Origin: a virus
Taxonomy: Duplodnaviria; Caudoviricetes
Length of the DNA stretch: 64,000 bases
IMG/VR virus record: IMGVR_UViG_3300033066_000802
Location: 1-64,000 of that record
Strand: one strand, 5' to 3'
The notes under the pieces were generated by a model. The model worked only from the letters and a program-made list of their open reading frames with translations. It was not told the DNA's origin and did not search any database. Numbering within the stretch: the first letter of the stretch is position 1; the number at the start of each line of letters is the position of its first letter. The position numbers and the translations under genes are program-made. This document shows, piece by piece, positions 4,858 to 39,602 of this stretch.

Positions 4858-4931
4858 TTGTGTTACAGTGGGTTTCGATCCCTTTCTAAGATGTCCACAA
4901 CATCTCGTGCTACCATTACACTACAGTAACC
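4858..4931 (-). tRNA. tRNA-His(GUG)
   Basis: Cloverleaf, AGATG-TT GTG GA-CATCT, G-1. Confidence 0.8.
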
Positions 4932-4944
4932 ATGTTAATTTTGT

Positions 4945-5018
4945 TGGGGTCAAGCACGGTATTGATCCGAGTTCTCTTGATTCACAGTCAAGCACATCAC
5001 CTTAATGCTTCAAGACCC
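4945..5018 (-). tRNA. tRNA-His(GUG)
   Basis: CTTGA-CT GTG AA-TCAAG; encoded CCA. Confidence 0.8.
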
Positions 5019-5027
5019 ATGTTATTC

Positions 5028-5102
5028 TGTAGCCCCTGGCAGAATCGAACTGCCGCTTCCACTTTGTAAGAGTGGCACACTTAACCACTATGTTAAGGGG
5101 CT
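5028..5102 (-). tRNA. tRNA-Val(UAC)
   Basis: CCACT-CT TAC AA-AGTGG; TTCGATT T-loop. Confidence 0.85.
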
Positions 5103-5105
5103 ATA

Positions 5106-5642
5106 TCACCAACCTTCAATTTGTGCGTGTCTAATTCTATGGCAATTGGCGCATAGTATCGCACATTTATCAAGTTCATTTGTTATTTTATCCCAAGATT
5201 GATATTTGATTTTATCAAAGTTTGGGTCTTTTTGTTTAGGTTCAAGATGATGAAATTCAAAAACAGAATAATGTGATTTTTCAAGTTTCAACTCACAATC
5301 TTCACACTGGTTGCCCTTATAACTAATCATTTTAAGTTTAACCTCTTTTACTCTATTAGTATGATATGCATTACTACATTTCTTACAATAACCACCAACA
5401 TCATTTCTATTTATCCTTTTGTAAAAATCAATTAATGGCTTAACCTTTTCACATTTTGGACAAAATTTATCAACTCTATCTTTTTTATTATATTGATTAG
5501 TTTTTGTTTTTAATTCAAAAGTATTTAACCAATATTTTACACTACCTTGTGAACATTTAAGTTCATCCGCAATTTTTCGTTGGGAATAACCCAGCTCTAT
5601 TAAATTCACCAATACATCTTTTTCCATGATAATAAATATCAC
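5106..5642 (-). CDS. HNH homing endonuclease (HTH + Zn-finger + HNH)
   Basis: CxxC pairs, FHHLEP..KD, LCANCHR; probable start MEKD at ~5627. Confidence 0.88.
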   Translation of the reverse strand: MIFIIMEKDVLVNLIELGYSQRKIADELKCSQGSVKYWLNTFELKTKTNQYNKKDRVDKFCPKCEKVKPLIDFYKRINRNDVGGYCKKCSNAYHTNRVKEVKLKMISYKGNQCEDCELKLEKSHYSVFEFHHLEPKQKDPNFDKIKYQSWDKITNELDKCAILCANCHRIRHAQIEGW

Positions 5643-5660
5643 TCACTTTAGAAAAAGATA

Positions 5661-5687
5661 ACTCTGAACCAACTGAGCTATACGGCT
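5661..5687 (-). pseudogene. Orphan tRNA 5' fragment (acceptor strand + D-arm), probably Val
   Basis: AGCCGTA-TA-GCTC-AGTTGGTTCA-GAGT ends abruptly at the HNH cassette. Confidence 0.75.
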
Positions 5688-5781
5688 AAATTTCTACCAG
5701 TTACGATTACCACAATTACGTAACGCCTCGCTCGCTAACGGAGCCGTTCTTTTTACGGGGTGGATTAAACTATGATATCCC

Positions 5782-5862
5782 TGTGCGCCTGGTTGGGTTC
5801 GAACCAACGACCCCCTGGTTAAAAGCCAGGTGCTTTAATCTACCAATCTGAGCTACAAGCGC
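5782..5862 (-). tRNA. tRNA-Lys(UUU), enlarged D-loop
   Basis: CCTGG-CT TTT AA-CCAGG. Confidence 0.88.
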
Positions 5863-5962
5863 ATTATTTAAATGTCTACTATAATATGCTTTTTGGGTAC
5901 CAGCGACCATTTTGCATAATTTAATATTCATTTCAACATAAAACAAAACGTCATATGTTGCT

Positions 5963-6037
5963 TGTGATCCCACAGGGATTCGAACCCTGAACCCGCTGGT
6001 TAAAAGCCAGCTACTCTACCAATTGAGCTATAAGATC
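5963..6037 (-). tRNA. tRNA-Lys(UUU)
   Basis: GCTGG-CT TTT AA-CCAGC. Confidence 0.9.
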
Positions 6038-6110
6038 GTGTGAGAGTATAGTTTGTTAAGCTATATGTTCACGCTGTTAGGCAGACATCCTACAATTTAG
6101 ATGAACTCTC

Positions 6111-6186
6111 TGGTGGTTCCACAGGGACTCGAACCCTGAACCCGCTGATTAAGAGTCAGCTGCGCTGCCAGTTGCGCCATGAAACC
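6111..6186 (-). tRNA. tRNA-Lys(CUU)
   Basis: GCTGA-CT CTT AA-TCAGC; encoded CCA. Confidence 0.92.
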
Positions 6187-6190
6187 AAAT

Positions 6191-6219
6191 AAAAAACCCC
6201 CGATTTTAGGTCAGGGGTT
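6191..6219 (-). terminator. Intrinsic terminator (attenuator 1) immediately before tRNA-Lys(CUU)
   Basis: AACCCCTGA-CCTAAAA-TCGGGGGTT-TTTT. Confidence 0.8.
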
Positions 6220-6245
6220 GTAAAGATCTTAGTTATAAGATATCC

Positions 6246-6326
6246 TTAGAAGTCATCAAAATACTCCCCCGTTAACACAAAGTGTTTCACATGTTTACTA
6301 TGTTTGACTATGACTATCTTTTTCAT
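6246..6326 (-). CDS. Putative attenuator leader peptide 1, MKKIVIVKHSKHVKHFVLTGEYFDDF
   Basis: 26 aa ORF between promoter and terminator; 12 of codons 2-17 are Lys/Val/His, the downstream tRNA isotypes. Confidence 0.75.
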   Translation of the reverse strand: MKKIVIVKHSKHVKHFVLTGEYFDDF

Positions 6327-6359
6327 CTTATTATATTTTTATTCGTTTTTTAAAATTAC

Positions 6360-6413
6360 AGGTTGTGCTTGTTTTTCGCTAAAAGAAAGTTTTTAATTTG
6401 CTGAATACAACCT
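6360..6413 (-). ncRNA. Stem + CAGCAA module RNA (stand-alone)
   Basis: AGGTTGT-ATTCAGCAA...TTTC TTTTAGC GAAA...AAGC-ACAACCT. Confidence 0.6.
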
Positions 6414-6428
6414 CATTAATAATTAGTA

Positions 6429-6460
6429 CAAATGTACGCAATGTTTTCGAAATAAACAAA
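6429..6460 (-). promoter_or_regulatory. Bacteroidota-type promoter of the Lys/Val/His tRNA block
   Basis: TTTG-N20-TACATTTG. Confidence 0.78.
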
Positions 6461-6535
6461 TTTATTTCAAAATTTATTTTTCTGGCTCAAAAAATCACTA
6501 ATTTGAGCTTCAAATCATACTGGGATTAAAAGAAT

Positions 6536-6609
6536 TGTGACTCCACAAGGAATCGAACCTTGATATGTTCTTTAGAAGAGAACCGCTCTATCCATTGAGC
6601 TATGGAGCC
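6536..6609 (-). tRNA. tRNA-Arg(UCU)
   Basis: GTTCT-CT TCT AA-AGAAC. Confidence 0.88.
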
Positions 6610-6698
6610 AAGTTTTGAAATTCACCAGCCACATCAGAAAAGCTGTCCATTCTGCGTAGTTTAAAGGATACCGTTACAGCCCTAACCTACTGGTTTTA

Positions 6699-6971
6699 TT
6701 ATTTACAAGCTGTTATTTTATTCCAAAGTTTTTTATCAGCTATACTTTTTTTACGACCATACCATCTAATACTACGCATAAAACCCATATTTTCACCTAT
6801 ATAATGAGCGAGGAAACTCTCAATAGATTGAGATTGATCCACACGACCATCCGATTTTCTACGCATAAATAATTTACCATCACAAAACTTATAATCCCAA
6901 TATTTTCGTATTTTTTTTAAAACCTTAATATTCATAACCATTAATTTTTTTACTCGTACTAATAAAATCAT
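6699..6971 (-). CDS. Hypothetical basic protein
   Basis: ORF track; likely start MNIK ~6935. Confidence 0.55.
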   Translation of the reverse strand: MILLVRVKKLMVMNIKVLKKIRKYWDYKFCDGKLFMRRKSDGRVDQSQSIESFLAHYIGENMGFMRSIRWYGRKKSIADKKLWNKITACK

Positions 6972-7236
6972 TTACAAACTTATCCACCACTGATAAATAT
7001 TCCCCATTAATTGAGTACTTCACAAATTTACCATCTTTAATAACTTTTATGATATTTGCCTTACGTAATATTGCAAGATGTTGTGACATTATTGACACTT
7101 CAAGATGCATTATTTTACTCAAATCAGTAATGTTCATATCTTTATTTTTAGATATGTTTTTTAATATCTCTTGCCTGGTTCTATGATTTAGAGAACGTAG
7201 GATCATTGACACCTCTTTTACTGACACATAATTCAT
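6925..7236 (-). CDS. ArsR/SmtB-family HTH transcription regulator
   Basis: LRSLNHRTRQEIL...SQHLAILRKANII...GKFVKYS; start moved to MNYV because 7254 lies inside a tRNA. Confidence 0.85.
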   Translation of the reverse strand: MNYVSVKEVSMILRSLNHRTRQEILKNISKNKDMNITDLSKIMHLEVSIMSQHLAILRKANIIKVIKDGKFVKYSINGEYLSVVDKFVNDFISTSKKINGYEY

Positions 7237-7238
7237 AA

Positions 7239-7313
7239 TGGTACCGATAAACAATTTTGAAATGTCGTCCTCACCCTTATGAGGGGTGCGCTCTGCCTCT
7301 GAGCTATATCGGT
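7239..7313 (-). tRNA. tRNA(CAU), probably Ile2 (lysidine type)
   Basis: CACCC-CT CAT AA-GGGTG (Ile-type anticodon arm); encoded CCA. Confidence 0.78.
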
Positions 7314-7556
7314 ATTAACTGGCATAGCTTTCATCACCAGTGTAGTAGTGCTTGTATAACTACTTTGATCGACTCGTCCCCTTAGCCATCGATCAATGCG
7401 CCATTTCAACCGTTAATTACTCGGCTTACTACAAGAGTTATAGGTAACACCTATCAGTTAAAAAATTGGTACGTTCTCAGATTCCTCTATCTAATCAGTA
7501 CCTGTCCCTAATGTTTGAGGTGAAGGAATTCCTCAAACCTGTCAGAGGGGACTTTC

Positions 7557-7631
7557 GAGCAGGTAATGAGATTCGAACTCACAACTTCCGACTTGGAAGG
7601 ACGGCACTCTAACCAATTGAGCTACACCTGC
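7557..7631 (-). tRNA. tRNA-Gly(UCC)
   Basis: CT TCC AA loop, U73; nt 8-10 (TAG) are the stop codon of the upstream HNH. Confidence 0.88.
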
Positions 7632-8050
7632 ATTGTTTTTTGTTGATAATGTAAATCCCTATGACAGTTAGAACATAATACAACACATTTATTTATTTCA
7701 TCTAATATTCGTTGTTTGTTAGCTGTTTTTACTAAACTTGAAACATCAATATCTTTTTCATTCGGATCAAGATGATGAAAATCTAAAACCCAATGTCTAT
7801 CCTCACCACATTTAGTACAAGACGAATTTTGTTTTATTTCTAAAACCCAATTAATAATATTTTGATTATAAATTTTAGCCTTATCAATATACTTTTGCTT
7901 ATTATTAATATAATGCTCACGTCTATAATTTTTTTGACATACCCGACACAAAGATTGATGATATTTTACTCTTCTATCTGTTCGACTCGCAAAATATTCA
8001 TCAGTCAATGGTATATCTTTTTTACAACCATTACAAAATTTTGTTACCAT
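7622..8050 (-). CDS. HNH homing endonuclease
   Basis: CxxC pairs, LDFHHLDPNEKD, LCSNCHR; start MVTK (8107 start lies in a tRNA). Confidence 0.88.
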   Translation of the reverse strand: MVTKFCNGCKKDIPLTDEYFASRTDRRVKYHQSLCRVCQKNYRREHYINNKQKYIDKAKIYNQNIINWVLEIKQNSSCTKCGEDRHWVLDFHHLDPNEKDIDVSSLVKTANKQRILDEINKCVVLCSNCHRDLHYQQKTMQV

Positions 8051-8060
8051 ATCAAAAAAT

Positions 8061-8133
8061 GAGCGGTAGAGTGGAGTCGAACCACCATTTTTGCCTTGGT
8101 AAGGCAATATAATAGCCTTTATACGACTACCGC
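8061..8133 (-). tRNA. tRNA-Gly(ACC), rare A34 anticodon
   Basis: TTGCC-TT ACC AA-GGCAA; acceptor GCGGTAG/CTACCGC, U73. Confidence 0.82.
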
Positions 8134-8472
8134 AATTGAGGCGATGCTTCGGTACGCCTCGATTCCCTATTCACCCATTTATAGTGACACCAGAAGCTTC
8201 TGTTTGTTCATTCCCTCGCTACTAATCGGTTGCCATACGACCAAGAATTCCAGATCCTGTTGGATCAACTCCTTTCGGAGAACGCCATGAGCAGCGCTAA
8301 TAATTGATTTTCATTTCGTTCAATTACTAAAACACGGTTGACTTTTAATGAGTTCCCCTCTCAATATTTTTAAAGTAGTCCCTGAGCAATAGACTCTGTA
8401 CCAGCGCTGATACCTATTGGGGACTCATGTTACGTTACATCTTATGATGTAAGAGGCTTTACACGCCACACT

Positions 8473-8546
8473 GAGCGGCAGACTGGATTCGAACCAGCGA
8501 CCTGGTACTTGGCAAGCACCTGCTCTACCAACTGAGCTACTACCGC
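8473..8546 (-). tRNA. tRNA-Gly(GCC)
   Basis: GCC anticodon, GCGGTAG/CTGCCGC acceptor, U73. Confidence 0.9.
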
Positions 8547-8823
8547 AAATAAAGTCAGAGGCTTGTGGGAATCCGATAACCTCGGCTGTACACACCTTTC
8601 GCTGATTGCTCAACTACACACGCTTGACTTTAAAGCTTACAAAAAACATCTTATCCCAATGTCATGAGGCTTGCGCCAGGGGAATCCGTTTACCATCCAA
8701 TCGTTTTTAATGAGGGATTGGAACCTCAGCCCAAAATAAAGTTACTAAGGAGAGTGTTCGCTCAAACAGGTAATGAACCTATATTCTCAACACTTAGAGG
8801 TGTTTTGCTACCCTTTTCACTTT

Positions 8824-8948
8824 GTCGCCCAGGATGGACTTGCACCACCGACCCACAGTTCCCATATTAAAATTTTAACTGCGGAACACATTCTCTAACA
8901 GAATGCTCTTTTTTTTTTACTGCTGCTCTGCTACTGAGCTACCAGGCG
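8824..8948 (-). ncRNA. tRNA-like RNA whose anticodon loop is replaced by a ~60 nt insert with hairpin + GTTCCGCA module
   Basis: Acceptor, D and T arms intact; GCAGT/ACTGT stem encloses A10-GAG-CATTCT gttag AGAATG-TGTTCCGCAG. Confidence 0.7.
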
Positions 8949-8962
8949 AATTTTCACTCATC

Positions 8963-9164
8963 GAGATACGATGAATTAGATTTTAACGGCTTTCTTTACT
9001 ATTCAAGAAGCATTCATTTTCATTAGTGTCTTACCACATACAAACCCGTCAAACTATTTGGAAGCTCTGTTACCTGCCCTTGACCCAAACCCCAGTATTT
9101 TAAAGTTACCACCTGGATATTAACTATAACTTTTTAAAGAAGTTACAAACTTGCTGAGTACCTC
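8963..9164 (-). ncRNA. ~200 nt RNA closed by stem + CAGCAA module
   Basis: GAGGTAC-TCAGCAA ... GTATCTC; no ORF. Confidence 0.5.
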
Positions 9165-9173
9165 TTACTCATT

Positions 9174-9194
9174 GCGGGGAGATCAGGATTCGAA
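9174..9194 (-). repeat. Displaced tRNA 3' end; 19 bp direct repeat of 9983-10001
   Basis: GGGGAGATCAGGATTCGAA at 9176-9194 and 9983-10001, flanking the nuclease gene. Confidence 0.85.
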
Positions 9195-9239
9195 AATCGA
9201 ATTTTGATCGAAATTAAACTATTTATTATTATTAATATT

Positions 9240-9926
9240 ATGATGCCACTTTACACTAAATACGAATTTAACTTAGCTAAACCAACAACTAAATTAACCT
9301 GTAAATGTTTATTTTGTAATAAAACTTTTTACTTAACAAAACATCGAATTCAAGCATGTTTAAATATTAATAACAAATCAAATACTGGTGATTTTTGTTC
9401 AATTAAATGCTCCAAATTATCAACAAGTAAAAAAGAAAATGTTAATTGTTTACAATGTAATAATATTTTTCTTAAATCAAAAGCTGAAATTAAAAAATCA
9501 CCTAACCATTTCTGTTCCAAGTCTTGCGCTGCCTCATATAATAACAAACACAAAACCACTGGTACCAGAAGATCCAAACTTGAACTCTACCTGGAAGAAC
9601 AATTAATATTGCTTTATCCAAACATTGAATTTCATTTTAACCGAAAAGACACTATTAATTCAGAACTCGATATCTATATACCATCCCTTAAACTTGCATT
9701 TGAGCTTAACGGTATCTTTCATTATGAACCAATATATGGTACAGATAAACTAAACCAAATACAGAACAATGACATATCCAAATCAAAAGCTTGCTTCGAT
9801 AATCAAATTGATCTTTGCACTATTGATGTGTCTGGTTTAAAATACTTCAAACCAAGCAACGCTCAAAAATACTTAGATATCATTGTAAATATCATAAATC
9901 AAAGAACTTCATTGTTAACCTCTTAG
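9240..9926 (+). CDS. Zn-finger + PD-(D/E)XK/Vsr(DUF559)-like putative homing endonuclease
   Basis: CxxC/FCS..C repeats, SKLE, ELDIYIPSLKLAFELNG.FHY; opposite strand to the tRNAs. Confidence 0.8.
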   Translation: MMPLYTKYEFNLAKPTTKLTCKCLFCNKTFYLTKHRIQACLNINNKSNTGDFCSIKCSKLSTSKKENVNCLQCNNIFLKSKAEIKKSPNHFCSKSCAASYNNKHKTTGTRRSKLELYLEEQLILLYPNIEFHFNRKDTINSELDIYIPSLKLAFELNGIFHYEPIYGTDKLNQIQNNDISKSKACFDNQIDLCTIDVSGLKYFKPSNAQKYLDIIVNIINQRTSLLTS

Positions 9927-9981
9927 CCAGCTTTACCTGTTTCTAACAACAACCACGTAGAGGTGGGTTAACTATGTTATC

Positions 9982-10104
9982 TGGGGAGATCAGGATTCGA
10001 ACCTGAACCTTTTTCTTAACAGGAAATTTTTGAGATAGTGATTTGCCGAACTTATCCACAACTGGATAACTCTTTTTTTAATGCTGCCGTTACACCATCT
10101 CCCC
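9982..10104 (-). tRNA. tRNA-Asn(GUU)-like with ~50 nt insert between D and anticodon arms
   Basis: GGGGAGA/TCTCCCC acceptor; insert A7-GAG-TTATCCA gttg TGGATAA-GTTCGGCAAAT; TTTC-CT GTT AA-GAAA. Confidence 0.72.
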
Positions 10105-10166
10105 GATTGTCTTACAATATTAAGAAATCATTTCGGTAAAACCAAGTGAATTTCAAAACTTTTTTG

Positions 10167-10284
10167 TTGTACACCAAGGAATTGAACCTTGCCCTTTCGA
10201 TTATGATTCGAAGTTTCTGTTGATTGCTGTATTAAACCCCTACGGGTTGTTTGAGATAACGTGCTACCGCTACACCAATGCGCA
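10167..10284 (-). tRNA. tRNA(CAU)-like with ~45 nt insert between D and anticodon arms
   Basis: Insert AACCC gtag GGGTT-TAATACAGCAATC; TTCGA-AT CAT AA-TCGAA; weak acceptor stem. Confidence 0.65.
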
Positions 10285-10378
10285 AGATAAAAAATATGAA
10301 GTAACTCTGTCAATCTAAAGTGTGCCGTTTACGCCAACGCTTGTTGGTTTCCATACTGACCCTTCTACTTCATATTTA

Positions 10379-10417
10379 GAGCCTCTGATAGGACTCGAAC
10401 CTACAACCATCTCCTTA
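10379..10417 (-). pseudogene. 3' half of a split tRNA (probably Thr)
   Basis: TAA-GGAGA-TGGTT-GTAGG TTCGAGT CCTAT-CAGAGGC; acceptor complementary to fragment at 10979-11010. Confidence 0.85.
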
Positions 10418-10427
10418 AAATTCTTTT

Positions 10428-10501
10428 GAGCCGCTAACAGGATTCGAACCTGCACACCCTGATTACAAGTCAGGAGTTCTACCAATTAAAACTATAGCGG
10501 C
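10428..10501 (-). tRNA. tRNA-Thr(UGU)
   Basis: CCTGA-CT TGT AA-TCAGG; nt 8-10 TAG is the HNH stop. Confidence 0.9.
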
Positions 10502-10920
10502 TTATTTAAATTGACCGTCTTTCTCCATTTTCTACCCTTACCTCTACTTTTATAGTAAGGTGTTAATGAATGACAATTAGGGCATAATAATTCCAAATTA
10601 TTTAAGTCATTATTTTCAGGATTACCATCAATATGATTTAATTCAATAGGAATCTTATTAGTAAATTTATTAATTTCGCACCAACCACATTTCATACATT
10701 TATTTCCATGTGTTTTAATTAAAAATCGTTTACCAACCCTTTCAATCGTATCTTTTCTACCCAAATCATCAAATTCACCAGACATAAATTTATCATATCG
10801 TAATTTATTTTGATATTCCGCTTGACACATATTATTACAATATGTATTTCTATTAGCGATTGTCTTTGAGCAATTCAAACACGTTTTTCCAATTTTTCTC
10901 TGTTTCTCATGGTCAACCAT
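10492..10920 (-). CDS. HNH homing endonuclease
   Basis: CMKCG, IELNHIDGNPENNDLNNLELLCPNCHS. Confidence 0.92.
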   Translation of the reverse strand: MVDHEKQRKIGKTCLNCSKTIANRNTYCNNMCQAEYQNKLRYDKFMSGEFDDLGRKDTIERVGKRFLIKTHGNKCMKCGWCEINKFTNKIPIELNHIDGNPENNDLNNLELLCPNCHSLTPYYKSRGKGRKWRKTVNLNKPL

Positions 10921-10978
10921 TTACTATTATAAATAGTGGTCAACCGATGAGAATTCAGATTCTAAGAACTTTTTTTCT

Positions 10979-11010
10979 GAGTTGCTCTACCAGTTAAGAG
11001 CTACAGAGGC
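10979..11010 (-). pseudogene. 5' half of the split tRNA (probably Thr)
   Basis: GCCTCTG-TA-GCTC-TTAACTGGTA-GAGC-A-ACTC. Confidence 0.85.
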
Positions 11011-11130
11011 ATTTCAACTTTTAGATTAACCCCAGAGTTGACAACTGTGCTGGCATACGATCCAGAGGCAAGGTTTCACCGTTCTTATGAGAGGTGTGCC
11101 ACATCTTCGCTCCCTTGCGCTTCGGGCTTT

Positions 11131-11217
11131 TGTAACGGCAGTGAGATTCGAACTCACGTTCTCTTTCGAGTTAGGGGTTATGAGCCCCCGCTGGTACCAT
11201 CTCCAGTCGACACCGCA
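11131..11217 (-). tRNA. Initiator-like tRNA(CAU) with long variable arm
   Basis: GGGGG-CT CAT AA-CCCCT; 1:72 mismatch; variable arm AACTCGAAAGAGAAC. Confidence 0.7.
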
Positions 11218-11304
11218 ATTTATCTTATAAATATACTCATCATTGATAAAGTTGTAAATACTTAGTAAAGTAATTCACTTTATTAATCAAAAATAAGTTT
11301 ATTA

Positions 11305-11381
11305 TGGCGGGAACAGAAAGACTCGAACTTTCAACCCTCTCGCTAACAACGAGCCGCTCTGACATTAGTAGCTATGTTCCC
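11305..11381 (-). tRNA. tRNA-Asn(GUU)
   Basis: TT GTT AG loop, G73, encoded CCA. Confidence 0.82.
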
Positions 11382-11468
11382 AATTTGTAAGGCTACCAAA
11401 TCCTTACGTGGAGGCTATTAGAAGGGTGTTTTCGACCTTGCCTCATTCTCCCCTTACGGTCACAGGTT

Positions 11469-11669
11469 TTAATATTTTAAACTACCACACAATATATCCA
11501 TTTCAACACCATTATCAAATCGTACCGCAACAAAGTCATCAAAACCACCCATACTACCGAATTTTGTATCTGGTACTGTTGTACCCATAACACCCTCAGT
11601 AAGTTGTTCATTATACTTAGTTAAATCCGTAATCAATTGTACTCTTTTTGGTGTACCTCCGTACTGCAT
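11469..11669 (-). CDS. Small hypothetical protein (SH3/KOW-like)
   Basis: 66 aa; RV.L...G..GTT...VAVRFDNG pattern. Confidence 0.55.
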   Translation of the reverse strand: MQYGGTPKRVQLITDLTKYNEQLTEGVMGTTVPDTKFGSMGGFDDFVAVRFDNGVEMDILCGSLKY

Positions 11670-11808
11670 AACAATAATTTAAAGATTAAAAAAATTGCTG
11701 TCTATTCCATGCCGCCAACCGTTTAATCTATTTGAAACGGTAAAAGTCAACTAAAGGTTACTTATCTTATTTTTACAGCATTAAGAACCAAGTTAAGAAT
11801 CAAGCTAT

Positions 11809-11881
11809 GTTGCGAGAGAAGGATTTGCACCCCCGACCTTCGGGTTATGAGCCCGACAAGCTACTACTGCTCTATCTCGCA
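11809..11881 (-). tRNA. tRNA-fMet(CAU)
   Basis: TCGGG-CT CAT AA-CCCGA (three G-C pairs); 5' end overlaps HNH C-terminus. Confidence 0.85.
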
Positions 11882-12439
11882 ATTTAATATTTTCAATATT
11901 CCATTATCGAACTCCCAATGATGATTTGGACATAACGCCATTAAATTATCGATATGGTTAATTTCTTCTATAGTACTATTATCACAAAAATCGGAAACCG
12001 CTTTAATGTGCGCCACTTCGTAGTGATTATGGTACCCACAATAACAACAAATTTTCAATTTATCAGACTCGTTGAAAACGTAGTTAGCATGTTTCCGTAT
12101 ACTCGTCCTGGCTGACTGCCAATTCTTATGTTTACTAAAAATCTCAGATTTGGTTAGTCCTGTTAAAAATTTAAACGGCATTTTAACTTTAACCGTTTTT
12201 GATTGCTCAATCTTTACTTTTTTAGAATTGTTGTATGATGCAGCACAACTACGATTACAAAACTTTCTAACTCTAACCTCTCTGGTTTTTTCGTGAGACC
12301 TTACCTCAATTATTTTTTCGCAATAATGGCATTTATTTGGATTCTGGTAATACCTTGCTAACGCTCGTTCACGTTGTTTTGCGTTACCAATGGCTGCGGC
12401 TTTTTGATGTTTATTCAGTTCCATACATATAAATAGCAT
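11864..12439 (-). CDS. HNH homing endonuclease
   Basis: FCNRSCAA Zn finger, EVAHIKAV...NHIDNLMALCPNHHWEFD; probable start MELN at 12424. Confidence 0.9.
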   Translation of the reverse strand: MLFICMELNKHQKAAAIGNAKQRERALARYYQNPNKCHYCEKIIEVRSHEKTREVRVRKFCNRSCAASYNNSKKVKIEQSKTVKVKMPFKFLTGLTKSEIFSKHKNWQSARTSIRKHANYVFNESDKLKICCYCGYHNHYEVAHIKAVSDFCDNSTIEEINHIDNLMALCPNHHWEFDNGILKILNCEIEQ

Positions 12440-12460
12440 AGAACTTTCGAAAATACCATC

Positions 12461-12484
12461 CGCTACACACTGCTCTACCCCGCT
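12461..12484 (-). pseudogene. Orphan 5' fragment of tRNA-fMet
   Basis: AGCGGGG-TA-GAGCAGTGTGTAGCG; can pair with the acceptor 3' strand at ~11811-11817 with a 1:72 mismatch. Confidence 0.78.
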
Positions 12485-12489
12485 ATATT

Positions 12490-12693
12490 TTAATTTATAT
12501 AAGCAACATTATCTTTTACTTCAACAGATGATGCATACCCCCTCATAACCAAATGAGGTTGTGTTTTACTCCATTTAGTTTCACACGGAACACCACATTT
12601 AATGTCCTGGGCAATTAAACATTGATTTCTGAAATGCACTGTCATTGCTTTATTAATTTTGTTGAAATGATAAAAAAACCTATATTTTTTCAT
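12490..12693 (-). CDS. Small hypothetical phage protein
   Basis: MKKYRFFYHFNK...CETKWSKTQPHLVMRG; 12762 start lies in a tRNA-like RNA. Confidence 0.65.
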   Translation of the reverse strand: MKKYRFFYHFNKINKAMTVHFRNQCLIAQDIKCGVPCETKWSKTQPHLVMRGYASSVEVKDNVAYIN

Positions 12694-12707
12694 TTGTTTA
12701 TTTTTAA

Positions 12708-12827
12708 TAGATGTGTACTGGATTCGAACCAATGTCTGAGGTGGCTTTACGCTATCGACCAAGATAAAAGGGATTTGAACCCTATCGCTACCTGACTCCC
12801 CAATTTTACCGTTAAACTAACACAACA
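12708..12827 (-). ncRNA. tRNA-like RNA with anticodon loop replaced by an insert containing a second T-arm
   Basis: GTTGTGT/ACACATC acceptor, D arm, ATTGG TTCGAAT CCAGT T arm; insert has AGGG TTCAAAT CCCT. Confidence 0.6.
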
Positions 12828-12829
12828 TG

Positions 12830-13012
12830 TTATGTCTTTGATGCTTCAATTGATATATCATTAAATACTGCTGATGTTGAGTTGTAACGTTCATGTGTTT
12901 CAATCGAAACGTTTACTTTAATTTCACCAGTTCCTTTGAAACCTATTGATTCCAAATGTTTTTTAATGATAGCATCGAGATCTTTCTTATCGAATTTAAT
13001 TGTTGTGGTCAT
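12830..13012 (-). CDS. Small hypothetical protein
   Basis: 60 aa ORF after promoter at 13029-13060. Confidence 0.6.
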   Translation of the reverse strand: MTTTIKFDKKDLDAIIKKHLESIGFKGTGEIKVNVSIETHERYNSTSAVFNDISIEASKT

Positions 13013-13028
13013 AAAATATTCCTTTCAG

Positions 13029-13060
13029 CAAAGTTACGAAAAGAATTTGAATTCACCAAA
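13029..13060 (-). promoter_or_regulatory. Bacteroidota-type promoter internal to the tRNA array
   Basis: TTTG-N20-TAACTTTG. Confidence 0.65.
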
Positions 13061-13081
13061 CAAAACCCAATATTTCTTTAA

Positions 13082-13158
13082 AGCGGATGTGACGGGACTC
13101 GAACCCGCACCACGCACCGTGACCAGGTGGCATTGTTATCCAATTCAACCACACATCC
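13082..13158 (-). tRNA. tRNA-Asp(GUC), atypical G33
   Basis: CACC-TG GTC AC-GGTG; G73. Confidence 0.8.
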
Positions 13159-13162
13159 ATTA

Positions 13163-13318
13163 GTGGCGACAATGGGAGTCGAACTCATAATCTCTGGGTT
13201 ATGCCCCCAGCGTGGTCATCCTCTCCGTTTAGTTACTTCTACCTTGTGTAATATTCCACTCAGCTTATTCATCTAAACATCCTTTTATCGAGGATTTTCC
13301 AAATTTCACTCTATCGCA
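13163..13318 (-). tRNA. Initiator-like tRNA(CAU) with ~80 nt insert in the D-loop
   Basis: TGCGATA/TGTCGCC acceptor (1:72 mismatch), GTG/CAC D stem, CTGGG-GG CAT AA-CCCAG. Confidence 0.65.
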
Positions 13319-13332
13319 TGATAAGTGTTTAT

Positions 13333-13770
13333 TTACTTTGTTAATTCTCGCATTTTATCGATACAACTATTAATCGAAAATCTTAAAAGAAGATCTGTTA
13401 ATATTTCAACAGTACCAATACCACCATAAGATTCAACCAGATTATTTCGCCATTTCCCACTTTTTTCATCTACACGATATAAATACCCATGTCCTTTATG
13501 AAAGGTAAATACAAAATCGGCTGATGCTGGTCTATCGTCATTATATGAACTCCTGATATCCAAGTGATAATTCAATTTTTCAAACAACGCCCAAATTTTT
13601 TCATTAGCAATATCACCTTCATTAGAATCCCTATTACCAGACATATCAAACCTTAAGTGTTCTGGTTGTTCATCTGGTAGATATTCTTTAGACAAATCTT
13701 GTCCGAGTGTCTTTCTAACAAAAGCCTCTACGATAGCTTTCATTTCTTCTGTAATACTTGTTAATAACAT
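13333..13770 (-). CDS. Hypothetical protein
   Basis: 145 aa ORF between tRNAs. Confidence 0.7.
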   Translation of the reverse strand: MLLTSITEEMKAIVEAFVRKTLGQDLSKEYLPDEQPEHLRFDMSGNRDSNEGDIANEKIWALFEKLNYHLDIRSSYNDDRPASADFVFTFHKGHGYLYRVDEKSGKWRNNLVESYGGIGTVEILTDLLLRFSINSCIDKMRELTK

Positions 13771-13786
13771 ATATTTTTTTTAATTA

Positions 13787-13861
13787 AGCGGGAAACAAGG
13801 GGGTCGAACCCTCAATCTCTACCGTGACAGGGTAGCATGTTACCATCAACACCTCGTTCCC
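13787..13861 (-). tRNA. tRNA-Asp(GUC)
   Basis: CTACC-CT GTC AC-GGTAG. Confidence 0.88.
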
Positions 13862-13869
13862 AATATTTT

Positions 13870-13945
13870 TGTAGCCACGACCAGATTCGAACTGGTATTT
13901 TAGGTTTAGGAAACCCACGTTCTGTCCAGTTGAACTACACAGCCA
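13870..13945 (-). tRNA. tRNA-Arg(CCU)
   Basis: TGGGT-TT CCT AA-ACCTA. Confidence 0.85.
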
Positions 13946-14150
13946 TTTTTTTGCCGCCATACCTATTTTTTAATATTTTAGTTGGTAACCCTGATTGGTG
14001 ATCATCAATGAATATAACCAATGATTCATGTTTTACTATTTGATAAGCTTCACCAGGGAAATCATTCAAACTAATTTCTTCAAACGGTTTATTCCTATCG
14101 TAACCAGGAAGATCTTCTCTAAAATAAACTAAACAAGTTGTTTTTAACAT
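13935..14150 (-). CDS. Small hypothetical protein
   Basis: 71 aa; stop codon is nt 8-10 of tRNA-Arg(CCU). Confidence 0.6.
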   Translation of the reverse strand: MLKTTCLVYFREDLPGYDRNKPFEEISLNDFPGEAYQIVKHESLVIFIDDHQSGLPTKILKNRYGGKKMAV

Positions 14151-14163
14151 AATTTAAAATTTT

Positions 14164-14239
14164 TGCGGAATAGAAGGGACTCGAACCCTCGACCTTCGCA
14201 GTGACAGTGCGATATTGTAACCAGCTCTACTACTACTCC
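14164..14239 (-). tRNA. tRNA-Asp(GUC)
   Basis: TCGCA-CT GTC AC-TGCGA. Confidence 0.88.
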
Positions 14240-14333
14240 GTTTTAAAAAATCTTTCAGACTCACTTTTTTGCTCCTTCTATGCGGAAACACATATGGATG
14301 AAGTGGTTGTCGTATAACATATTTTTTAGGGTC

Positions 14334-14536
14334 GAGATTCCAACCTCGTTTAACCAACCCACATTTATGCCACTGGACACGCAATGTATTCGTTTCGGTT
14401 TCCCGACTTTACCTACCACACAGTGACTCAGGTTTTTAAACCAAAAATATGTGATAACACTGCTCGTAACTTTCCCTTTCGGGTGCCAGACTACCTTAGA
14501 ACCGTTAGTTTGCAAATTGATGCTGTACTGAATCTC
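14334..14536 (-). ncRNA. ~200 nt RNA closed by stem + CAGCA module
   Basis: GAGATTC-AGTACAGCATC ... GAATCTC; internal GAAA-loop hairpins (CCC GAAA GGG). Confidence 0.55.
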
Positions 14537-14548
14537 ATAAAGATTTTT

Positions 14549-14622
14549 TGCTCTTGTGGAGAATTTCGAAATCTCGACTTAACGCTTAACAGGCGTTTAC
14601 TCTACCTCTGAGTTACACAAGA
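14549..14622 (-). tRNA. tRNA-Asn(GUU)
   Basis: AACGC-CT GTT AA-GCGTT; G73. Confidence 0.88.
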
Positions 14623-14626
14623 ATTT

Positions 14627-14776
14627 TTAAAGTTCACCCAAAGCTTGTTTGATAATTTTCTTATCTAACATCCTTCTTTTAGATGATGTTAATTTTTTAC
14701 TGAATGCTTTGACGTGTTTTGCCCATTCGCCATTCAGGATGGAGTTGATTTTACTCCCTGGTCTAATTTTTCCCAT
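14627..14776 (-). CDS. Small basic protein (49 aa) MGKIRPGSKINSILNGEWAKHVKAFSKK...
   Basis: Below ORF-track cutoff; clean ATG-TAA between RNA genes. Confidence 0.55.
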   Translation of the reverse strand: MGKIRPGSKINSILNGEWAKHVKAFSKKLTSSKRRMLDKKIIKQALGEL

Positions 14777-14973: not shown

Positions 14974-15051
14974 TGTGTGCCTTTCTGGAGTCGAACCAGA
15001 CACCTAATGATTATGAGTCATTCGCTCTCACCTACCATGAGCTAAAGGCAC
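14974..15051 (-). tRNA. tRNA(CAU), probably Ile2
   Basis: AATGA-CT CAT AA-TCATT; paired 1:72. Confidence 0.8.
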
Positions 15052-37905: not shown

Positions 37906-37954
37906 TGAAAGGCTTTTTCTTATGTCCAAGGAAATAATATGCTGAACCCTTTCA
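37906..37954 (-). ncRNA. Stem + CAGCA module RNA downstream of DUF2828
   Basis: TGAAAGG-GTTCAGCA...TTTC CTTGGACATAA GAAA-AAG-CCTTTCA. Confidence 0.62.
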
Positions 37955-37976
37955 CATTTACAAAAACGTTTTTTTC

Positions 37977-38188
37977 GGAATAGTCGTTTTTTTAATAGTG
38001 AATGACTAAACTATAGGGTATTTTAATAGTTCGCCCAAAACTATAGATCTCTTGATTAGTATTATCTAAACTAAGGGTGTTTTTTTATTGCTGGTCACTC
38101 ACAAGGTGAGTGGATTGCAGCGCTTAAGAAAACAACCAAAAACTCTTCTATCGCATAATTGTTTTTAGGTTTTTGCGGCACCTATTCC
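37977..38188 (-). ncRNA. ~210 nt RNA closed by stem + CCGCAA module, with internal hairpin+CAGCAA and three repeated hairpins
   Basis: GGAATAG-GTGCCGCAA ... CTATTCC; CACTCAC ctt GTGAGTG-ACCAGCAA. Confidence 0.6.
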
Positions 38189-38204: not shown

Positions 38205-39602
38205 TTAAACAGTTACTGCCTGATACCTTTCAGCATGTACAGTTTTATTCATTATTGCCACTGGTGACATATCTTCACCAGATAATACAGACTTCAAGAT
38301 CGCTGGAGAGAACCCGCTGATTAAAGCTGTTCCTTCATCAGTAACCTGTACTGGGAAGTTACCATCATGACGGCTCTCCATATTCCAGAATATGATCTTA
38401 GGCATAGTATAACCAGCCTGTGCATACCTGTGCTTGATCATGTCAAGCGCAGTTTGGTTACTACGACACGCAGAGTTAAACTCCATGTCTGACGCAATCA
38501 AAATTGCTGTTGGCATTTCCGATGGTGGTAGGTTAGCCGACTGAGCCTTATTCAGGATCAATGCAAACGTAGCTTCCAGGTTTGTTGAACCACCCCAAGG
38601 AGCAGACTGAAGCTGACGGAACCTCGATTCCAAGTTACCAGTAAGGTACTGTAACTGTGGGTTGTCATCGAATGTCAAGAATGCATTCTTGAAGATACCT
38701 TCATTCCTTTCAGAAATATAAAGACCGAGTGATATACACACGTCCATACATGTAAGGTTAGCGTTACCACCAGCCGAACACCCCATAGAACCTGATACGT
38801 CACAAACCATCAACAGACGCTCGTTGTTGTTTTCCAACCAATTTGGTAACGCATCCCACTGCTTAACAGCAAGTTGCTTATCACCCATCCTCAATGTCTT
38901 AACAACATCGTATGGATATACCGCACCAGCGTTTATTTTAGTATCACCATTCTTGTACTGATCGAACCTTGAGGTGTCGTTCTTAGCAAACGCCTTTGAA
39001 TAACGAGCCATAGCCAATGAAGGTATATGTTCGTATGTAATCGAACCCCAGTTCTTTGAACACATAAGTTGTTCTACCACCTTAGTGTTTTCAACTAACA
39101 GCTTACGGTAAGCCTTTGGTGTTAACTTCATATAACGCTCAAGAGCGATAGCTTCCTTACCCTTACGTGGCATCCACTTAGCACAAAGACCATCACCAGC
39201 CAATAACGCAGTTTGGATTAACTCCATAGCCTGAGTTTCAAGCGCTGTACCAAAAAGTACAAGCAAATCATCCCAACGACCATAGAAAGGAACCAATTCC
39301 AAGTTCTTAGACAGAACTTTTCTATTATGTTGAACAAGATAGGTTACAATATCCTTAAATATCTGACGCTCACCAGCACCCTGACGTGCATCACGTACCC
39401 AGAATAAAATTCTCATTGCTGTCAATGGATCTTCACCAAAAGCTTTAGAAAAGGTCGAAATCAACCTATTCTTATCTTGCCCTCTCATAGCACCAATAGT
39501 GAAAAATAAATCCACACATGCATTTAATGTAGATGAGTTTGTTACCATACCATTTTCGGTACGTGTGTTCCTTGTACGCAAAGCGTTAATTAATTGTGAC
39601 AT
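38205..39602 (-). CDS. DUF2828 family protein (TROVE/Ro60-like helical domain + vWA)
   Basis: TENG, RD.R.G.GER..F, YGRWDDL, AKWMPR, CDVSGSM MIDAS, STN, SDMEF, FWN, SGFSP. Confidence 0.85.
   Translation of the reverse strand: MSQLINALRTRNTRTENGMVTNSSTLNACVDLFFTIGAMRGQDKNRLISTFSKAFGEDPLTAMRILFWVRDARQGAGERQIFKDIVTYLVQHNRKVLSKNLELVPFYGRWDDLLVLFGTALETQAMELIQTALLAGDGLCAKWMPRKGKEAIALERYMKLTPKAYRKLLVENTKVVEQLMCSKNWGSITYEHIPSLAMARYSKAFAKNDTSRFDQYKNGDTKINAGAVYPYDVVKTLRMGDKQLAVKQWDALPNWLENNNERLLMVCDVSGSMGCSAGGNANLTCMDVCISLGLYISERNEGIFKNAFLTFDDNPQLQYLTGNLESRFRQLQSAPWGGSTNLEATFALILNKAQSANLPPSEMPTAILIASDMEFNSACRSNQTALDMIKHRYAQAGYTMPKIIFWNMESRHDGNFPVQVTDEGTALISGFSPAILKSVLSGEDMSPVAIMNKTVHAERYQAVTV

What the first reader, a model, noticed from the sequence alone, without database searches (positions are those of the whole stretch)
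8824..10284. Three tRNAs carry the same module as an internal, circularly permuted insert
Seen: 8824-8948, 9982-10104 (Asn GUU) and 10167-10284 (CAU) keep acceptor, D and T arms but have 45-60 nt inserts: A-rich linker, hairpin (CATTCT/AGAATG; TTATCCA/TGGATAA; AACCC/GGGTT), then GTTCCGCA, GTTCGGCAA or ATACAGCAA. In stand-alone copies the stem is formed by the RNA ends; here the strands are in reverse order and closed by a 4-5 nt loop. The inserts are far too short for group I introns and show no obvious bulge-helix-bulge. Inference: tRNA/Y-RNA chimeras, the topological mirror of YrlA, likely missed or called pseudogenes by tRNA scanners.
Basis: partly seen in the sequence, partly recalled or inferred. 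Interest (0 to 1): 0.82.

Follow-up and report, generated by a model that had tools for sequence, protein, structure and literature searches.

The report
Phage tRNAs carrying a Ro60-partner handle
Three tRNA genes of a large freshwater phage carry, next to the anticodon arm, the same short RNA "handle" found on small RNAs encoded beside the phage's Ro60-like protein gene, so they are probably tRNA-shaped partners of that protein, a fusion I did not find in the literature.

Summary
Window 8825-8948, 9982-10104 and 10167-10284 (minus strand) are tRNA-shaped genes with 47-59 nt inserts: an A-run, a 5-7 bp hairpin, 3-5 nt, then CNGCA(A/G). Standard scanners miss them.

In t2 (Asn GUU) and t3 (CAU) the insert lies between position 26 and an intact anticodon arm. 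In t1 it fills the anticodon loop, and t1 has no canonical anticodon.

The inserts are conserved. I found at least 14 distinct insert-bearing tRNAs in other large-phage contigs. All five helices covary, the CNGCAA block is nearly invariant, and insert sites differ (26/27, 29/30, anticodon loop). The discriminator base tracks the anticodon.

The same handle starts the small RNAs just downstream of DUF2828/DUF7788 genes (27 of 57 loci; 4.7 expected). That protein's predicted structure matches Ro60 over its full length. In one complete 258-kb phage, the Ro60-like gene is followed directly by seven handle RNAs, four of them built into tRNA bodies.

Whether the handle stays in the mature RNA or is cut out remains untested; no RNA data were available. 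This scan has noted the same theme in other phage genomes, mostly with the anticodon loop replaced. Here two of the three are complete tRNAs plus handle.

The parts
8825..8948 (-). t1: tRNA-like RNA. Acceptor, D and T stems are kept. The handle (A-run 8918-8909, hairpin 8906-8888, CCGCAG 8884-8879) sits inside the anticodon stem GCAGT/ACTGT. There is no canonical anticodon loop, and the D and T loops are degenerate.
   Evidence: The ortholog in L006 (about 3513-3627) has a covarying acceptor and stem.
9982..10104 (-). t2: complete tRNA-Asn(GUU) body with a 52-nt handle insert at 10079-10028, between position 26 and the anticodon stem. Hairpin 10069-10052; CGGCAA 10048-10043; anticodon 10020-10018.
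   Evidence: Homologs are L002:14462-14586, L004:2376-2499, L005:1291-1409, L006:3173-3293, L131, L141, L129 and L140.
10167..10284 (-). t3: complete tRNA(CAU) body with a 47-nt handle insert at 10259-10213, between position 26 and the anticodon stem. Hairpin 10248-10235; CAGCAA 10229-10224; anticodon 10205-10203.
   Evidence: In the homolog L002:15830-15950 there are compensatory changes in the hairpin, anticodon stem and acceptor.
9914..9981 (-). HDV-like ribozyme candidate. Its first base directly follows the discriminator A9982 of t2, so self-cleavage would make the tRNA 3' end.
   Evidence: Rfam RF02682, 35.3 bits against a gathering score of 44, E 5e-5 in the local search, with the core blocks conserved.
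9169..9981 (.). Homing-nuclease cassette inserted into the 3' end of t2. It consists of the plus-strand HNH-type ORF 9204-9926, the ribozyme above, and a leftover copy of the t2 T-arm/acceptor 3' end at 9195-9169 that keeps the ancestral discriminator G.
   Evidence: PHROG HNH hits. L006 has t2 followed directly by the sequence that here follows the leftover copy.
38205..39602 (-). DUF2828/DUF7788 protein gene with a Ro60-like fold (helical-repeat ring plus vWA domain); the proposed partner of the handle.
   Evidence: Pfam. AlphaFold2 model with pLDDT 82; the top Foldseek hits are Ro60/TROVE structures over the full length.
37906..38188 (-). Two stand-alone handle RNAs downstream of the Ro60-like gene. 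The stem is formed by the RNA ends (GGAATAG/CTATTCC and TGAAAGG/CCTTTCA) and is followed by CCGCAA or CAGCAT.
   Evidence: The same layout occurs in L013, L015, L016, L018 and others and in G001.

Best explanation
t1, t2 and t3 belong to a conserved family of phage tRNA-shaped RNAs. Each has a docking handle grafted next to or into the anticodon arm. The handle is a short helix flanked on one side by an A-run and on the other by CNGCAA. The same handle marks the Y-RNA-like small RNAs encoded directly downstream of the phage's Ro60-fold protein (DUF2828/DUF7788).

Proposed mechanism (inferred):
- The Ro60-like ring protein binds the handle, as Ro60 binds the conserved 5' strand of the Y RNA stem.
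- The tRNA body is the effector end of the RNA.
- In t2 and t3 that body is a complete tRNA with an anticodon loop and synthetase identity marks. It can still be recognised by tRNA-handling proteins such as synthetases, modification and repair enzymes, or host anticodon nucleases.
- The RNA therefore couples the Ro60-like protein to them.

Shown: module homology, covariation, genomic linkage to the protein gene, and the Ro60 fold.

Inferred: binding, retention of the handle in the mature RNA, and the identity of the partner.
For: 1. Conservation.
- Homologs of t2 and t3 occur in a relative whose A1-like protein is 75% identical, with compensatory changes in the insert hairpin.
- A pattern search and covariance model R1 find further members in IMG/VR and metagenome contigs.
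- On 10 distinct members, 94% of cells are paired and 20 of 27 pairs change on both sides.
- No shuffle out of 500 reached the observed values.
- In the insert hairpin, 5 of 6 pairs covary.
- The CNGCAA block is constant except for N.

2. The same handle lies beside the protein gene.
- CNGCAA occurs within 90 nt downstream of DUF2828 in 27 of 57 non-identical loci, against 4.7 expected (p = 6e-15).
- It is always a few nt after a purine-rich stem strand (GGAAT-like) whose partner lies at the RNA 3' end behind an A-run.
- The similarity between a t2-type insert (L006) and a DUF2828-adjacent RNA (L013) runs on for about 20 nt past the motif.

3. Direct linkage. In G002 (258 kb, complete) the DUF2828 gene at 55528-56964 is followed on the same strand, at 55442-54802, by seven handle RNAs:
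- three with the stem formed by the RNA ends;
- three inside tRNAs: Asn GUU, a tRNA with an AAU-like loop, and Gly GCC;
- one replacing the anticodon arm of a tRNA-like body.

4. The protein has a Ro60 fold. The top 13 PDB hits are Ro60/TROVE structures, with E from 2.5e-9 to 5.5e-5 and TM 0.42-0.58.

5. A 97%-complete record (G006) that lacks DUF2828 has a tRNA with the same D arm but an unrelated insert without CNGCAA.

6. The tRNA bodies are under selection.
- After in-silico removal of the insert, ARAGORN of 12 as tRNAs.
- The discriminator follows the anticodon: U73 with both Gly, G73 with three Asn, A73 with Pro, Leu and CAU.

7. Precedent. YrlA Y RNAs pair a Ro60 site near the 5' end with a tRNA-like domain (PMC4201824).
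Against: - No expression, processing or binding data exist; no RNA run was listed.
- In this window the three genes lie 28 kb from the DUF2828 gene.
- The handle is short. Inside a single genome it is not statistically distinctive.
- A fixed-register weight matrix built from DUF2828-adjacent RNAs does not rank t1-t3 among the top sites of the genome. The spacer between stem and motif is 3-5 nt in the inserts and mostly 5 nt in the stand-alone RNAs.
- Many DUF2828 phage records showed no insert-bearing tRNA, though most are fragments.
- The canonical anticodon loops and synthetase identity marks would fit decoding tRNAs. A 50-nt arm at 29/30 inside the anticodon stem, as in some relatives, is hard to reconcile with ribosome use. 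This favours removal of the insert.
Confidence: 0.5

Rival explanations
1. The inserts are a new kind of small intervening sequence. The precursor carries the handle, which is cut out (by host or phage nucleases plus a ligase, perhaps guided by the Ro60-like protein). This would yield ordinary decoding tRNAs and possibly a mini Y-like RNA.
For: - The exons form perfect cloverleaves with 7-nt U33 loops and are called as tRNAs once the insert is removed.
- The discriminator matches the anticodon.
- Anticodons diversify among homologs: GUU, AUU, UAA, UUA, CGG, GCC, UGG, UCC, CAU.
- The same element sits at different positions (26/27, 29/30, anticodon loop), as mobile archaeal tRNA introns do.
- An arm at 29/30 should clash with the ribosome (inference).
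Against: - No bulge-helix-bulge motif is present: 2-5 of 8 pairs at the true borders, no better than elsewhere.
- No splicing endonuclease or RtcB was found in this 52%-complete contig.
- The insert is far too small for group I or II introns, and no Rfam intron or ribozyme hit lies in it.
- No insert-free close counterpart of any member was found (74% identity or less).
- The same handle is a stable feature of stand-alone RNAs, and of tRNA-like bodies without any anticodon arm, where splicing makes no sense.
- No tRNA splicing other than self-splicing introns is known in bacteria (established knowledge).
Confidence: 0.27
2. These are decaying or neutral tRNA genes that were hit by a recombining or mobile handle sequence. 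The array is full of homing-nuclease scars. On this view the chimeras have no function of their own.
For: - The array holds several HNH cassettes and tRNA fragments.
- 5' halves (acceptor, D arm, A-run) occur fused to unrelated sequence in L003/L009, L012, L128 and L139.
- t1 in this window has degenerate D and T loops and no anticodon loop.
- Normal tRNA-Asn and CAU tRNAs exist in the same array.
Against: - All five helices covary over divergent phages with 94% pairing.
- Nearly all members have 7/7 acceptor stems; t3 in this window has 6/7 and t1 two G-U pairs.
- Identity marks are kept.
- The t2 3' end was rebuilt rather than lost when the nuclease cassette entered.
- The handle motif is invariant.
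Confidence: 0.1
3. The hairpins act on the opposite strand or at the DNA level. Read on the plus strand, each hairpin is followed by a T-run and could stop antisense transcription, for example from the plus-strand HNH gene.
For: On the plus strand the t1 and t2 hairpins are followed by T-rich runs. The t2 hairpin lies about 120 nt downstream of the plus-strand ORF 9204-9926.
Against: - The terminator scan calls neither hairpin.
- The A-run is also conserved in the stand-alone topology. There the two stem strands are 40-200 nt apart, so the opposite strand cannot form a terminator.
- G-U pairs occur on the tRNA strand.
- t1 has no plus-strand gene upstream.
- CNGCAA conservation has no role in a terminator.
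Confidence: 0.03

Closest known systems
YrlA-type bacterial and phage Y RNAs bound by Ro60/Rsr (Chen et al. 2014, PMC4201824; Rfam YrlA)
   Same: - A small RNA combines a protein-docking stem, with a short conserved single-strand motif next to one stem strand, and a tRNA-like domain with D and T arms.
- The gene lies close to a Ro60-fold protein gene on the same strand (seen in G002, G001 and beside DUF2828 in this window).
- These RNAs also occur in phages.
   Different: - In YrlA the RNA ends form the docking stem and the acceptor-like stem is closed. Here the acceptor ends are free and the docking stem is closed by a loop.
- t2 and t3 keep a full anticodon arm and identity marks, so they are complete tRNAs and not mimics.
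- The motif is CNGCAA, not GNCGAA(N)G.
- The protein is DUF2828/DUF7788, with no Pfam TROVE match.
- No Rfam YrlA hit was found.
Dictyostelid Class I RNAs (Rfam RF01414; Kjellin et al. 2021, PMC7919456)
   Same: [quoted passage not shown] Per the paper, its near-invariant positions are T3, C6, C9, A10 and A11.
- From my recollection the motif ends in CAGCAA, which would be the same core as the handle.
- The rest of the RNA is variable.
- One stand-alone handle RNA in this window (6359-6412) gets 32.2 bits with that model.
   Different: - That family is eukaryotic and reported as unique to Dictyostelia.
- Its known direct binder is an RRM protein.
- The match is below the gathering score of 41.5.
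- The embedded tRNA copies and the G002 RNAs do not hit the model.
- This is a resemblance only.
Archaeal tRNA introns at non-canonical positions (bulge-helix-bulge type)
   Same: Short inserts (tens of nt) of related sequence lie at various positions of tRNA genes, including 26/27 and 29/30, with intact exons.
   Different: No bulge-helix-bulge motif was found and no splicing endonuclease was detected. The host is bacterial. The insert shares a motif with stand-alone RNAs.
tRNA-linked HDV-like theta ribozymes of gut phages (Kienbeck et al. 2024, PMC10879173)
   Same: An HDV-like ribozyme candidate sits directly 3' of t2, placed to cut off the 3' trailer.
   Different: This concerns only the 3' end of t2, not the inserts. 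The score is below the Rfam gathering score. The phage is freshwater, and the paper reports such ribozymes only from mammalian gut phages.

Membership tests
tRNA (Rfam RF00005 / cloverleaf) | 7-bp acceptor stem plus discriminator; D arm and T arm with G18G19 and the T-loop consensus | tested here: met
   t2 has 7/7 and t3 6/7 acceptor pairs, 4-bp D stems with GG, and 5/5 T stems. t1 keeps the stems, but its D loop lacks GG and its T loop is TGC.
tRNA (Rfam RF00005 / cloverleaf) | 5-bp anticodon stem with a 7-nt loop, U33 and a purine at 37 | tested here: met
   Met for t2 (loop CTGTTAA) and t3 (loop ATCATAA); the stem covaries in homologs. Not met for t1.
tRNA (Rfam RF00005 / cloverleaf) | Contiguous 70-95 nt gene that scores above the family threshold | tested here: not met
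   The genes are 118-124 nt. Rfam gives 25.8 and 18.2 bits, below 29, and no hit for t1. ARAGORN default is negative. Once the insert is removed in silico, t2, t3 and ten homologs (12 of 12) are called as tRNAs.
YrlA / Y RNA of Ro60 | Ro60 (TROVE) ortholog encoded in the genome | tested here: inconclusive
   No Pfam TROVE match; the protein matches DUF2828 and DUF7788. phmmer to PDB TROVE chains gives E 1.3. The predicted fold matches Ro60 structures over the full length.
YrlA / Y RNA of Ro60 | RNA gene within about 4 kb of the Ro60 gene on the same strand | tested here: not met
   t1-t3 lie 28 kb from the DUF2828 gene, on the same strand. The criterion is met for homologous handle-bearing tRNAs in G002, within 0.1-0.7 kb.
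YrlA / Y RNA of Ro60 | Stem formed by the RNA ends, with GNCGAA(N)G near the 5' end; match to the Rfam model | tested here: not met
   The stem is closed by a 4-5 nt loop, the motif is CNGCA(A/G), and no YrlA hit appeared at E up to 10.
YrlA / Y RNA of Ro60 | Physical binding to the Ro60 protein | not testable with these tools
   Needs pull-down or gel-shift experiments.
Bulge-helix-bulge tRNA intron | 3-nt bulge, 4-bp helix, 3-nt bulge at the exon borders, and a splicing endonuclease | tested here: not met
   Only 2-5 of 8 required pairs at the true borders in 12 members. PF01974 is absent from the contig, which is only 52% complete.
Group I intron in tRNA | Catalytic core of about 200 nt or more, inserted in the anticodon loop | tested here: not met
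   The inserts are 47-59 nt. Those of t2 and t3 are not in the loop. No Rfam intron hit was found.
Dictyostelid Class I RNA (RF01414) | End-paired short stem plus the 11-nt motif; score above the gathering score | tested here: not met
   The embedded copies give no hit. Only the stand-alone RNA at 6359-6412 scores, at 32.2 bits below 41.5.
HDV-like (theta) ribozyme, for 9914-9981 only | Nested double-pseudoknot core; cleavage site directly 3' of a tRNA | tested here: inconclusive
   RF02682 gives 35.3 bits, below 44. The core blocks are conserved and the first base abuts the discriminator. Cleavage was not tested.

The most novel reading that the evidence does not exclude
t2 and t3 are genuine tRNAs that can be charged with an amino acid and that keep the handle when mature. 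A Ro60-like ring would then ride on a real tRNA. Such a particle could act as bait or shield against host anticodon nucleases, or as a device that brings the ring to damaged tRNAs, synthetases or the ribosome. That would be a natural tRNA-ribonucleoprotein adaptor with no described counterpart.
Probability: 0.3. Interest if true: 0.9.

Novelty: new variant of a known kind. Interest (0 to 1): 0.74.

Why it matters
Ro60 and its Y RNAs are conserved from bacteria to humans, yet what the tRNA-like part of bacterial Y RNAs is for remains open.

Here a phage branch of that system uses a different docking motif and a protein family with no assigned function (DUF2828/DUF7788). It grafts the docking handle onto complete tRNAs that keep anticodon loops and synthetase identity marks.

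If the handle is retained, this would be the first natural case I know of where a real tRNA serves as the effector arm of a Ro-type particle. It would point the function of such particles toward tRNA handling during infection, such as repair, protection or decoy roles against tRNA-cutting defences.

If the handle is removed, it would be a new kind of bacterial-virus tRNA intervening sequence.

Either way, these genes are missed by tRNA scanners, so phage tRNA inventories are undercounted. The system can be tested directly with a few cloned RNAs and one protein.

Tried and rejected
- **Single-genome motif tests.** Hairpin plus CNGCA gave 30 and 42 sites on the two strands. The 8-mer GTTCNGCA gave 14 sites against about 9 expected by my estimate. 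The stricter A-run version gave 18 sites against 8.6 in shuffles and missed t3. None is distinctive alone.
- **Fixed-register weight matrix.** Built from 15 DUF2828-adjacent RNAs. It ranks the window's own Y-like RNA third and the RNA at 6403 fifth, but t1-t3 are not in the top 25. The variable spacer defeats it.
- **First regex on DUF2828 loci** (G[TG][TG]CNGCA). It was too strict and found almost nothing. Reading the sequences showed the real consensus.
- **ARAGORN with introns allowed.** It finds t2 and t3 only by forcing wrong anticodon-loop introns (Val-CAC, Leu-CAA). I rejected these calls because the GUU and CAU arms covary in homologs.
- **Rfam.** No YrlA, intron or self-cleaving ribozyme lies inside the inserts.
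- **Bulge-helix-bulge test.** Negative.
- **RtcB and splicing endonuclease.** Not found in the contig, which is 52% complete, so this is weak evidence.
- **Insert-free alleles.** None among tRNAs of the fetched loci.
- **RNA evidence.** No RNA holder was listed.
- **Laying DNA contigs.** This showed only that the same sequence, with one base change in the t2 D loop, occurs in a second riverine sample. No deletion variant was seen.
- **Phage GenBank search of the region.** Only generic tRNA and HNH matches.
- **Literature.** No paper on DUF2828 in phages or on insert-bearing phage tRNAs of this kind was found.
- **Antisense terminator idea.** Rejected (plus the topology argument).
Full report
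**Setting**

The window is the first 64 kb of a 154.6-kb virus record that is 52% complete. Genes are densely packed on the minus strand and include tail fibre, an A1-like DNA transfer protein and ClpP. A tRNA array lies on the minus strand from 4860 to 16149, interspersed with HNH-type homing nuclease genes. The three loci of the finding lie inside this array.

**Observation**

Reading the minus strand and mapping each RNA onto the cloverleaf by script gives the following.

- **t2 (10104 to 9982)** has a perfect acceptor stem, a D arm with GG, a canonical T arm, and an anticodon arm with loop CTGTTAA. A 52-nt insert lies between position 26 and the anticodon stem.
- **t3 (10284 to 10167)** has the same layout, with a perfect TTCGA/TCGAA anticodon stem, loop ATCATAA and a 47-nt insert.
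- **t1 (8948 to 8825)** keeps the acceptor, D and T stems. Its five-pair stem GCAGT/ACTGT encloses 59 nt and no seven-base anticodon loop, and its D and T loops have lost the elbow consensus.

ARAGORN with default settings misses all three, and Rfam's tRNA model stays below threshold. With introns allowed, ARAGORN finds t2 and t3 only by forcing an intron into a false anticodon loop. Comparative data reject those readings.

**Is it more than chance?**

Within this genome alone, no.

- The loose pattern occurs 18 times against 8.6 in shuffles.
- The eight-base word is at about chance level.
- A fixed-register weight matrix from the Ro60-gene-adjacent RNAs does not single out the inserts.

The case is comparative.

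- A 321-kb IMG/VR phage (L002; A1-like protein 75% identical) has homologs of t2 and t3. They show compensatory changes in the insert hairpin, the anticodon stem and the acceptor stem.
- A pattern taken from the t2 D arm plus A-run found ten IMG/VR stretches and sixteen metagenome stretches.
- Those with a complete tRNA all carry the same insert architecture, although only the D arm and A-run were specified.
- A covariance model built from seven sequences then found further members with different D arms.

On ten distinct members:

- 94% of cells are paired.
- 20 of 27 pairs change on both sides.
- No shuffle out of 500 reaches the observed values.
- Sliding the partners collapses pairing to about 47%.
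- In the insert hairpin itself, 5 of 6 pairs covary.
- The CNGCAA block is constant except for the second base and one final C.

**Where the insert sits**

The site is not fixed.

- It is at 26/27 in the t2 and t3 types.
- It is at 29/30, inside the 5' strand of the anticodon stem, in L006:2300-2420 (Gly UCC), L004:4005-4120 (Pro CGG) and L007:4011-4130 (Asn GUU). The split stem covaries there: CTG+GC, CAG+GC, CTT+CC.
- It is within the anticodon stem-loop in L005:1472-1583 and in the t1 type.

After removing the insert in silico, ARAGORN with default settings calls twelve of twelve as tRNAs.

The discriminator base follows the anticodon as in bacterial identity rules (established knowledge):

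- U73 with both Gly tRNAs.
- G73 with three Asn tRNAs.
- A73 with the Pro, Leu and CAU tRNAs.

The one exception is t2 itself, which has A73. Its 3' end was rebuilt by a nuclease cassette, and the leftover original end at 9195-9169 keeps G.

No member has a close insert-free counterpart among the tRNAs of the fetched loci.

**Link to the Ro60-like protein**

The window encodes a DUF2828/DUF7788 protein at 38205-39602. Sequence searches barely touch TROVE proteins. An AlphaFold2 model from a 30-sequence alignment (pLDDT 82) matches Ro60 structures over its whole length. The hits include a Thermus phage Ro60, Deinococcus Rsr and Xenopus and human Ro60, with E from 2.5e-9 to 5.5e-5.

I fetched 80 related loci. 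In 27 of 57 non-identical loci, CNGCAA occurs within 90 nt after the gene, against 4.7 expected (p = 6e-15). This includes most loci above about 53% protein identity.

The layout in these loci is constant:

- a purine-rich stem strand (GGAAT-like);
- a few bases, then CNGCAA;
- an A/U-rich stretch and a variable middle;
- an A-run and the complementary strand at the 3' end.

The tRNA inserts contain the same elements in the order A-run, strand, loop, strand, spacer, CNGCAA. That is the same junction with the helix capped by a loop instead of by the RNA ends.

The decisive locus is G002, a complete 258-kb phage with terminal repeats. Its DUF2828 gene (48% identical) is followed on the same strand, after a TTGACA...TAAAAT promoter-like site, by seven handle RNAs within 640 nt:

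- three small end-paired RNAs;
- tRNA-Asn, a tRNA with an AAU-like loop, and tRNA-Gly, each with the embedded handle;
- a tRNA-like body whose anticodon arm is replaced by the handle.

A 97%-complete record without DUF2828 (G006) has a tRNA with the same D arm and A-run but an unrelated insert lacking CNGCAA.

**Interpretation**

The handle is a functional RNA element shared by stand-alone and tRNA-embedded forms, and it is genomically tied to a Ro60-fold protein.

By analogy with Ro60, the simplest reading is that the handle docks the DUF2828 protein and the tRNA body is the effector end. Ro60 contacts mainly the conserved 5' strand of the Y RNA stem. YrlA pairs such a site with a tRNA-like domain (PMC4201824).

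It holds with three amendments:

- The motif and the protein family differ from YrlA and Rsr.
- t1 is a mimic rather than a tRNA.
- t2 and t3 are complete tRNAs with the handle beside, not instead of, the anticodon arm.

**What I cannot decide**

I cannot tell whether the handle stays in the mature RNA.

For retention:

- The handle occurs in RNAs where splicing is meaningless.
- There is a continuum from end-paired RNAs through tRNA-like bodies to full tRNAs.
- There is no bulge-helix-bulge motif.
- No splicing endonuclease or RtcB was found in the partial contig.
- No insert-free alleles were found.

For removal:

- Anticodon loops and identity marks are preserved.
- Anticodons diversify among homologs.
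- The 29/30 site should be incompatible with ribosome use (inference).

I put retention with protein docking at about 0.5, excision at about 0.27, neutral decay at about 0.1 and an antisense or DNA-level role at about 0.03.

The last is disfavoured for two reasons. The A-run is conserved in the end-paired topology, where the opposite strand cannot form a terminator. The terminator scan also calls nothing at the hairpins.

**Comparison with what is known**

- TROVE proteins with tRNA-like partner RNAs are known in bacteria and in some jumbo phages (PMC4201824; PMC7824862).
- I found no paper on DUF2828 in phages or on such tRNAs.
- The handle's architecture and its C..CAA core resemble the eleven-base motif of dictyostelid Class I RNAs (PMC7919456). 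One stand-alone copy in the window scores 32.2 bits with that Rfam model, below threshold. This is a lead, not membership.
- Earlier notes of this scan describe the same DUF2828-handle theme in other phage genomes, mostly with the anticodon loop replaced. Those notes are unchecked by me. Here I tested the anticodon arms of t2 and t3 and find them intact and covarying.

**Side finding**

An HDV-like ribozyme candidate at 9981-9914 abuts the discriminator of t2. It belongs to a plus-strand HNH cassette that entered the t2 3' end and duplicated part of it. In L006 the uninterrupted arrangement is preserved. This fits the proposed role of theta ribozymes in trimming tRNA 3' trailers (PMC10879173), but in a freshwater phage.

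Noticed in passing
window 9914-9981 (-), with 9169-9195 and 9204-9926 (+): An HDV-like ribozyme candidate (RF02682, 35.3 bits, below the gathering score) starts exactly after the t2 discriminator. It travels with a plus-strand HNH gene that was inserted into the t2 3' end. The leftover original end keeps discriminator G, while the rebuilt tRNA has A.
   Followed up: partly
L123/L126 (G001:46799-47788 and 48817-49227, minus strand): In the 321-kb relative, the DUF2828 gene matches in two pieces (residues 1-137 and 137-465) about 1 kb apart. This suggests an intervening element such as an intron, intein or nuclease gene inside the Ro60-like gene.
   Followed up: no
L059, L061, L062, L070, L073, L075-L077, L080, L084, L086, L087: In the more distant DUF2828 clade (46-50% identity), 12 of the 13 loci with a tRNA within 800 nt downstream have tRNA-Gly (GCC or UCC) as the first one, on the same strand. 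This may be conserved synteny of one phage group or a specific link to tRNA-Gly.
   Followed up: partly
L002:14690-14800: A stand-alone handle RNA lies inside the relative's tRNA array. It has an end-paired stem, then GTTCCGCAA, then an acceptor-like stem with D and T arms but no anticodon arm (Rfam tRNA 39.6 bits at 14712-14770), then a long A-rich linker. It is intermediate between Y-like RNAs and the tRNA chimeras.
   Followed up: partly
L003/L009, L012, L128, L139 (and L130, L137, L142): The 5' half of the t2 type (acceptor strand, D arm, A-run) occurs fused to unrelated downstream sequence in several contigs. In L128 the handle hairpin loop is expanded by a wcaG-like segment. These look like recombination products or scars.
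   Followed up: no
L131:4691-4816 versus L002:14462-14586: Two close homologs of one handle-bearing tRNA differ in the anticodon loop. One reads UAA (Leu-type) and the other UUA, which ARAGORN calls a stop-codon (ochre) reader.
   Followed up: no
L002:16698-16794; window about 8677-8726: A near-threshold wcaG RNA match (39 bits against a gathering score of 42) lies in the relative's tRNA array. The window has a similar stretch just downstream of t1.
   Followed up: no
window 6359-6412 (-): A stand-alone handle RNA upstream of the Lys tRNAs gives a sub-threshold match to the Dictyostelium Class I RNA model (RF01414, 32.2 bits against 41.5).
   Followed up: partly
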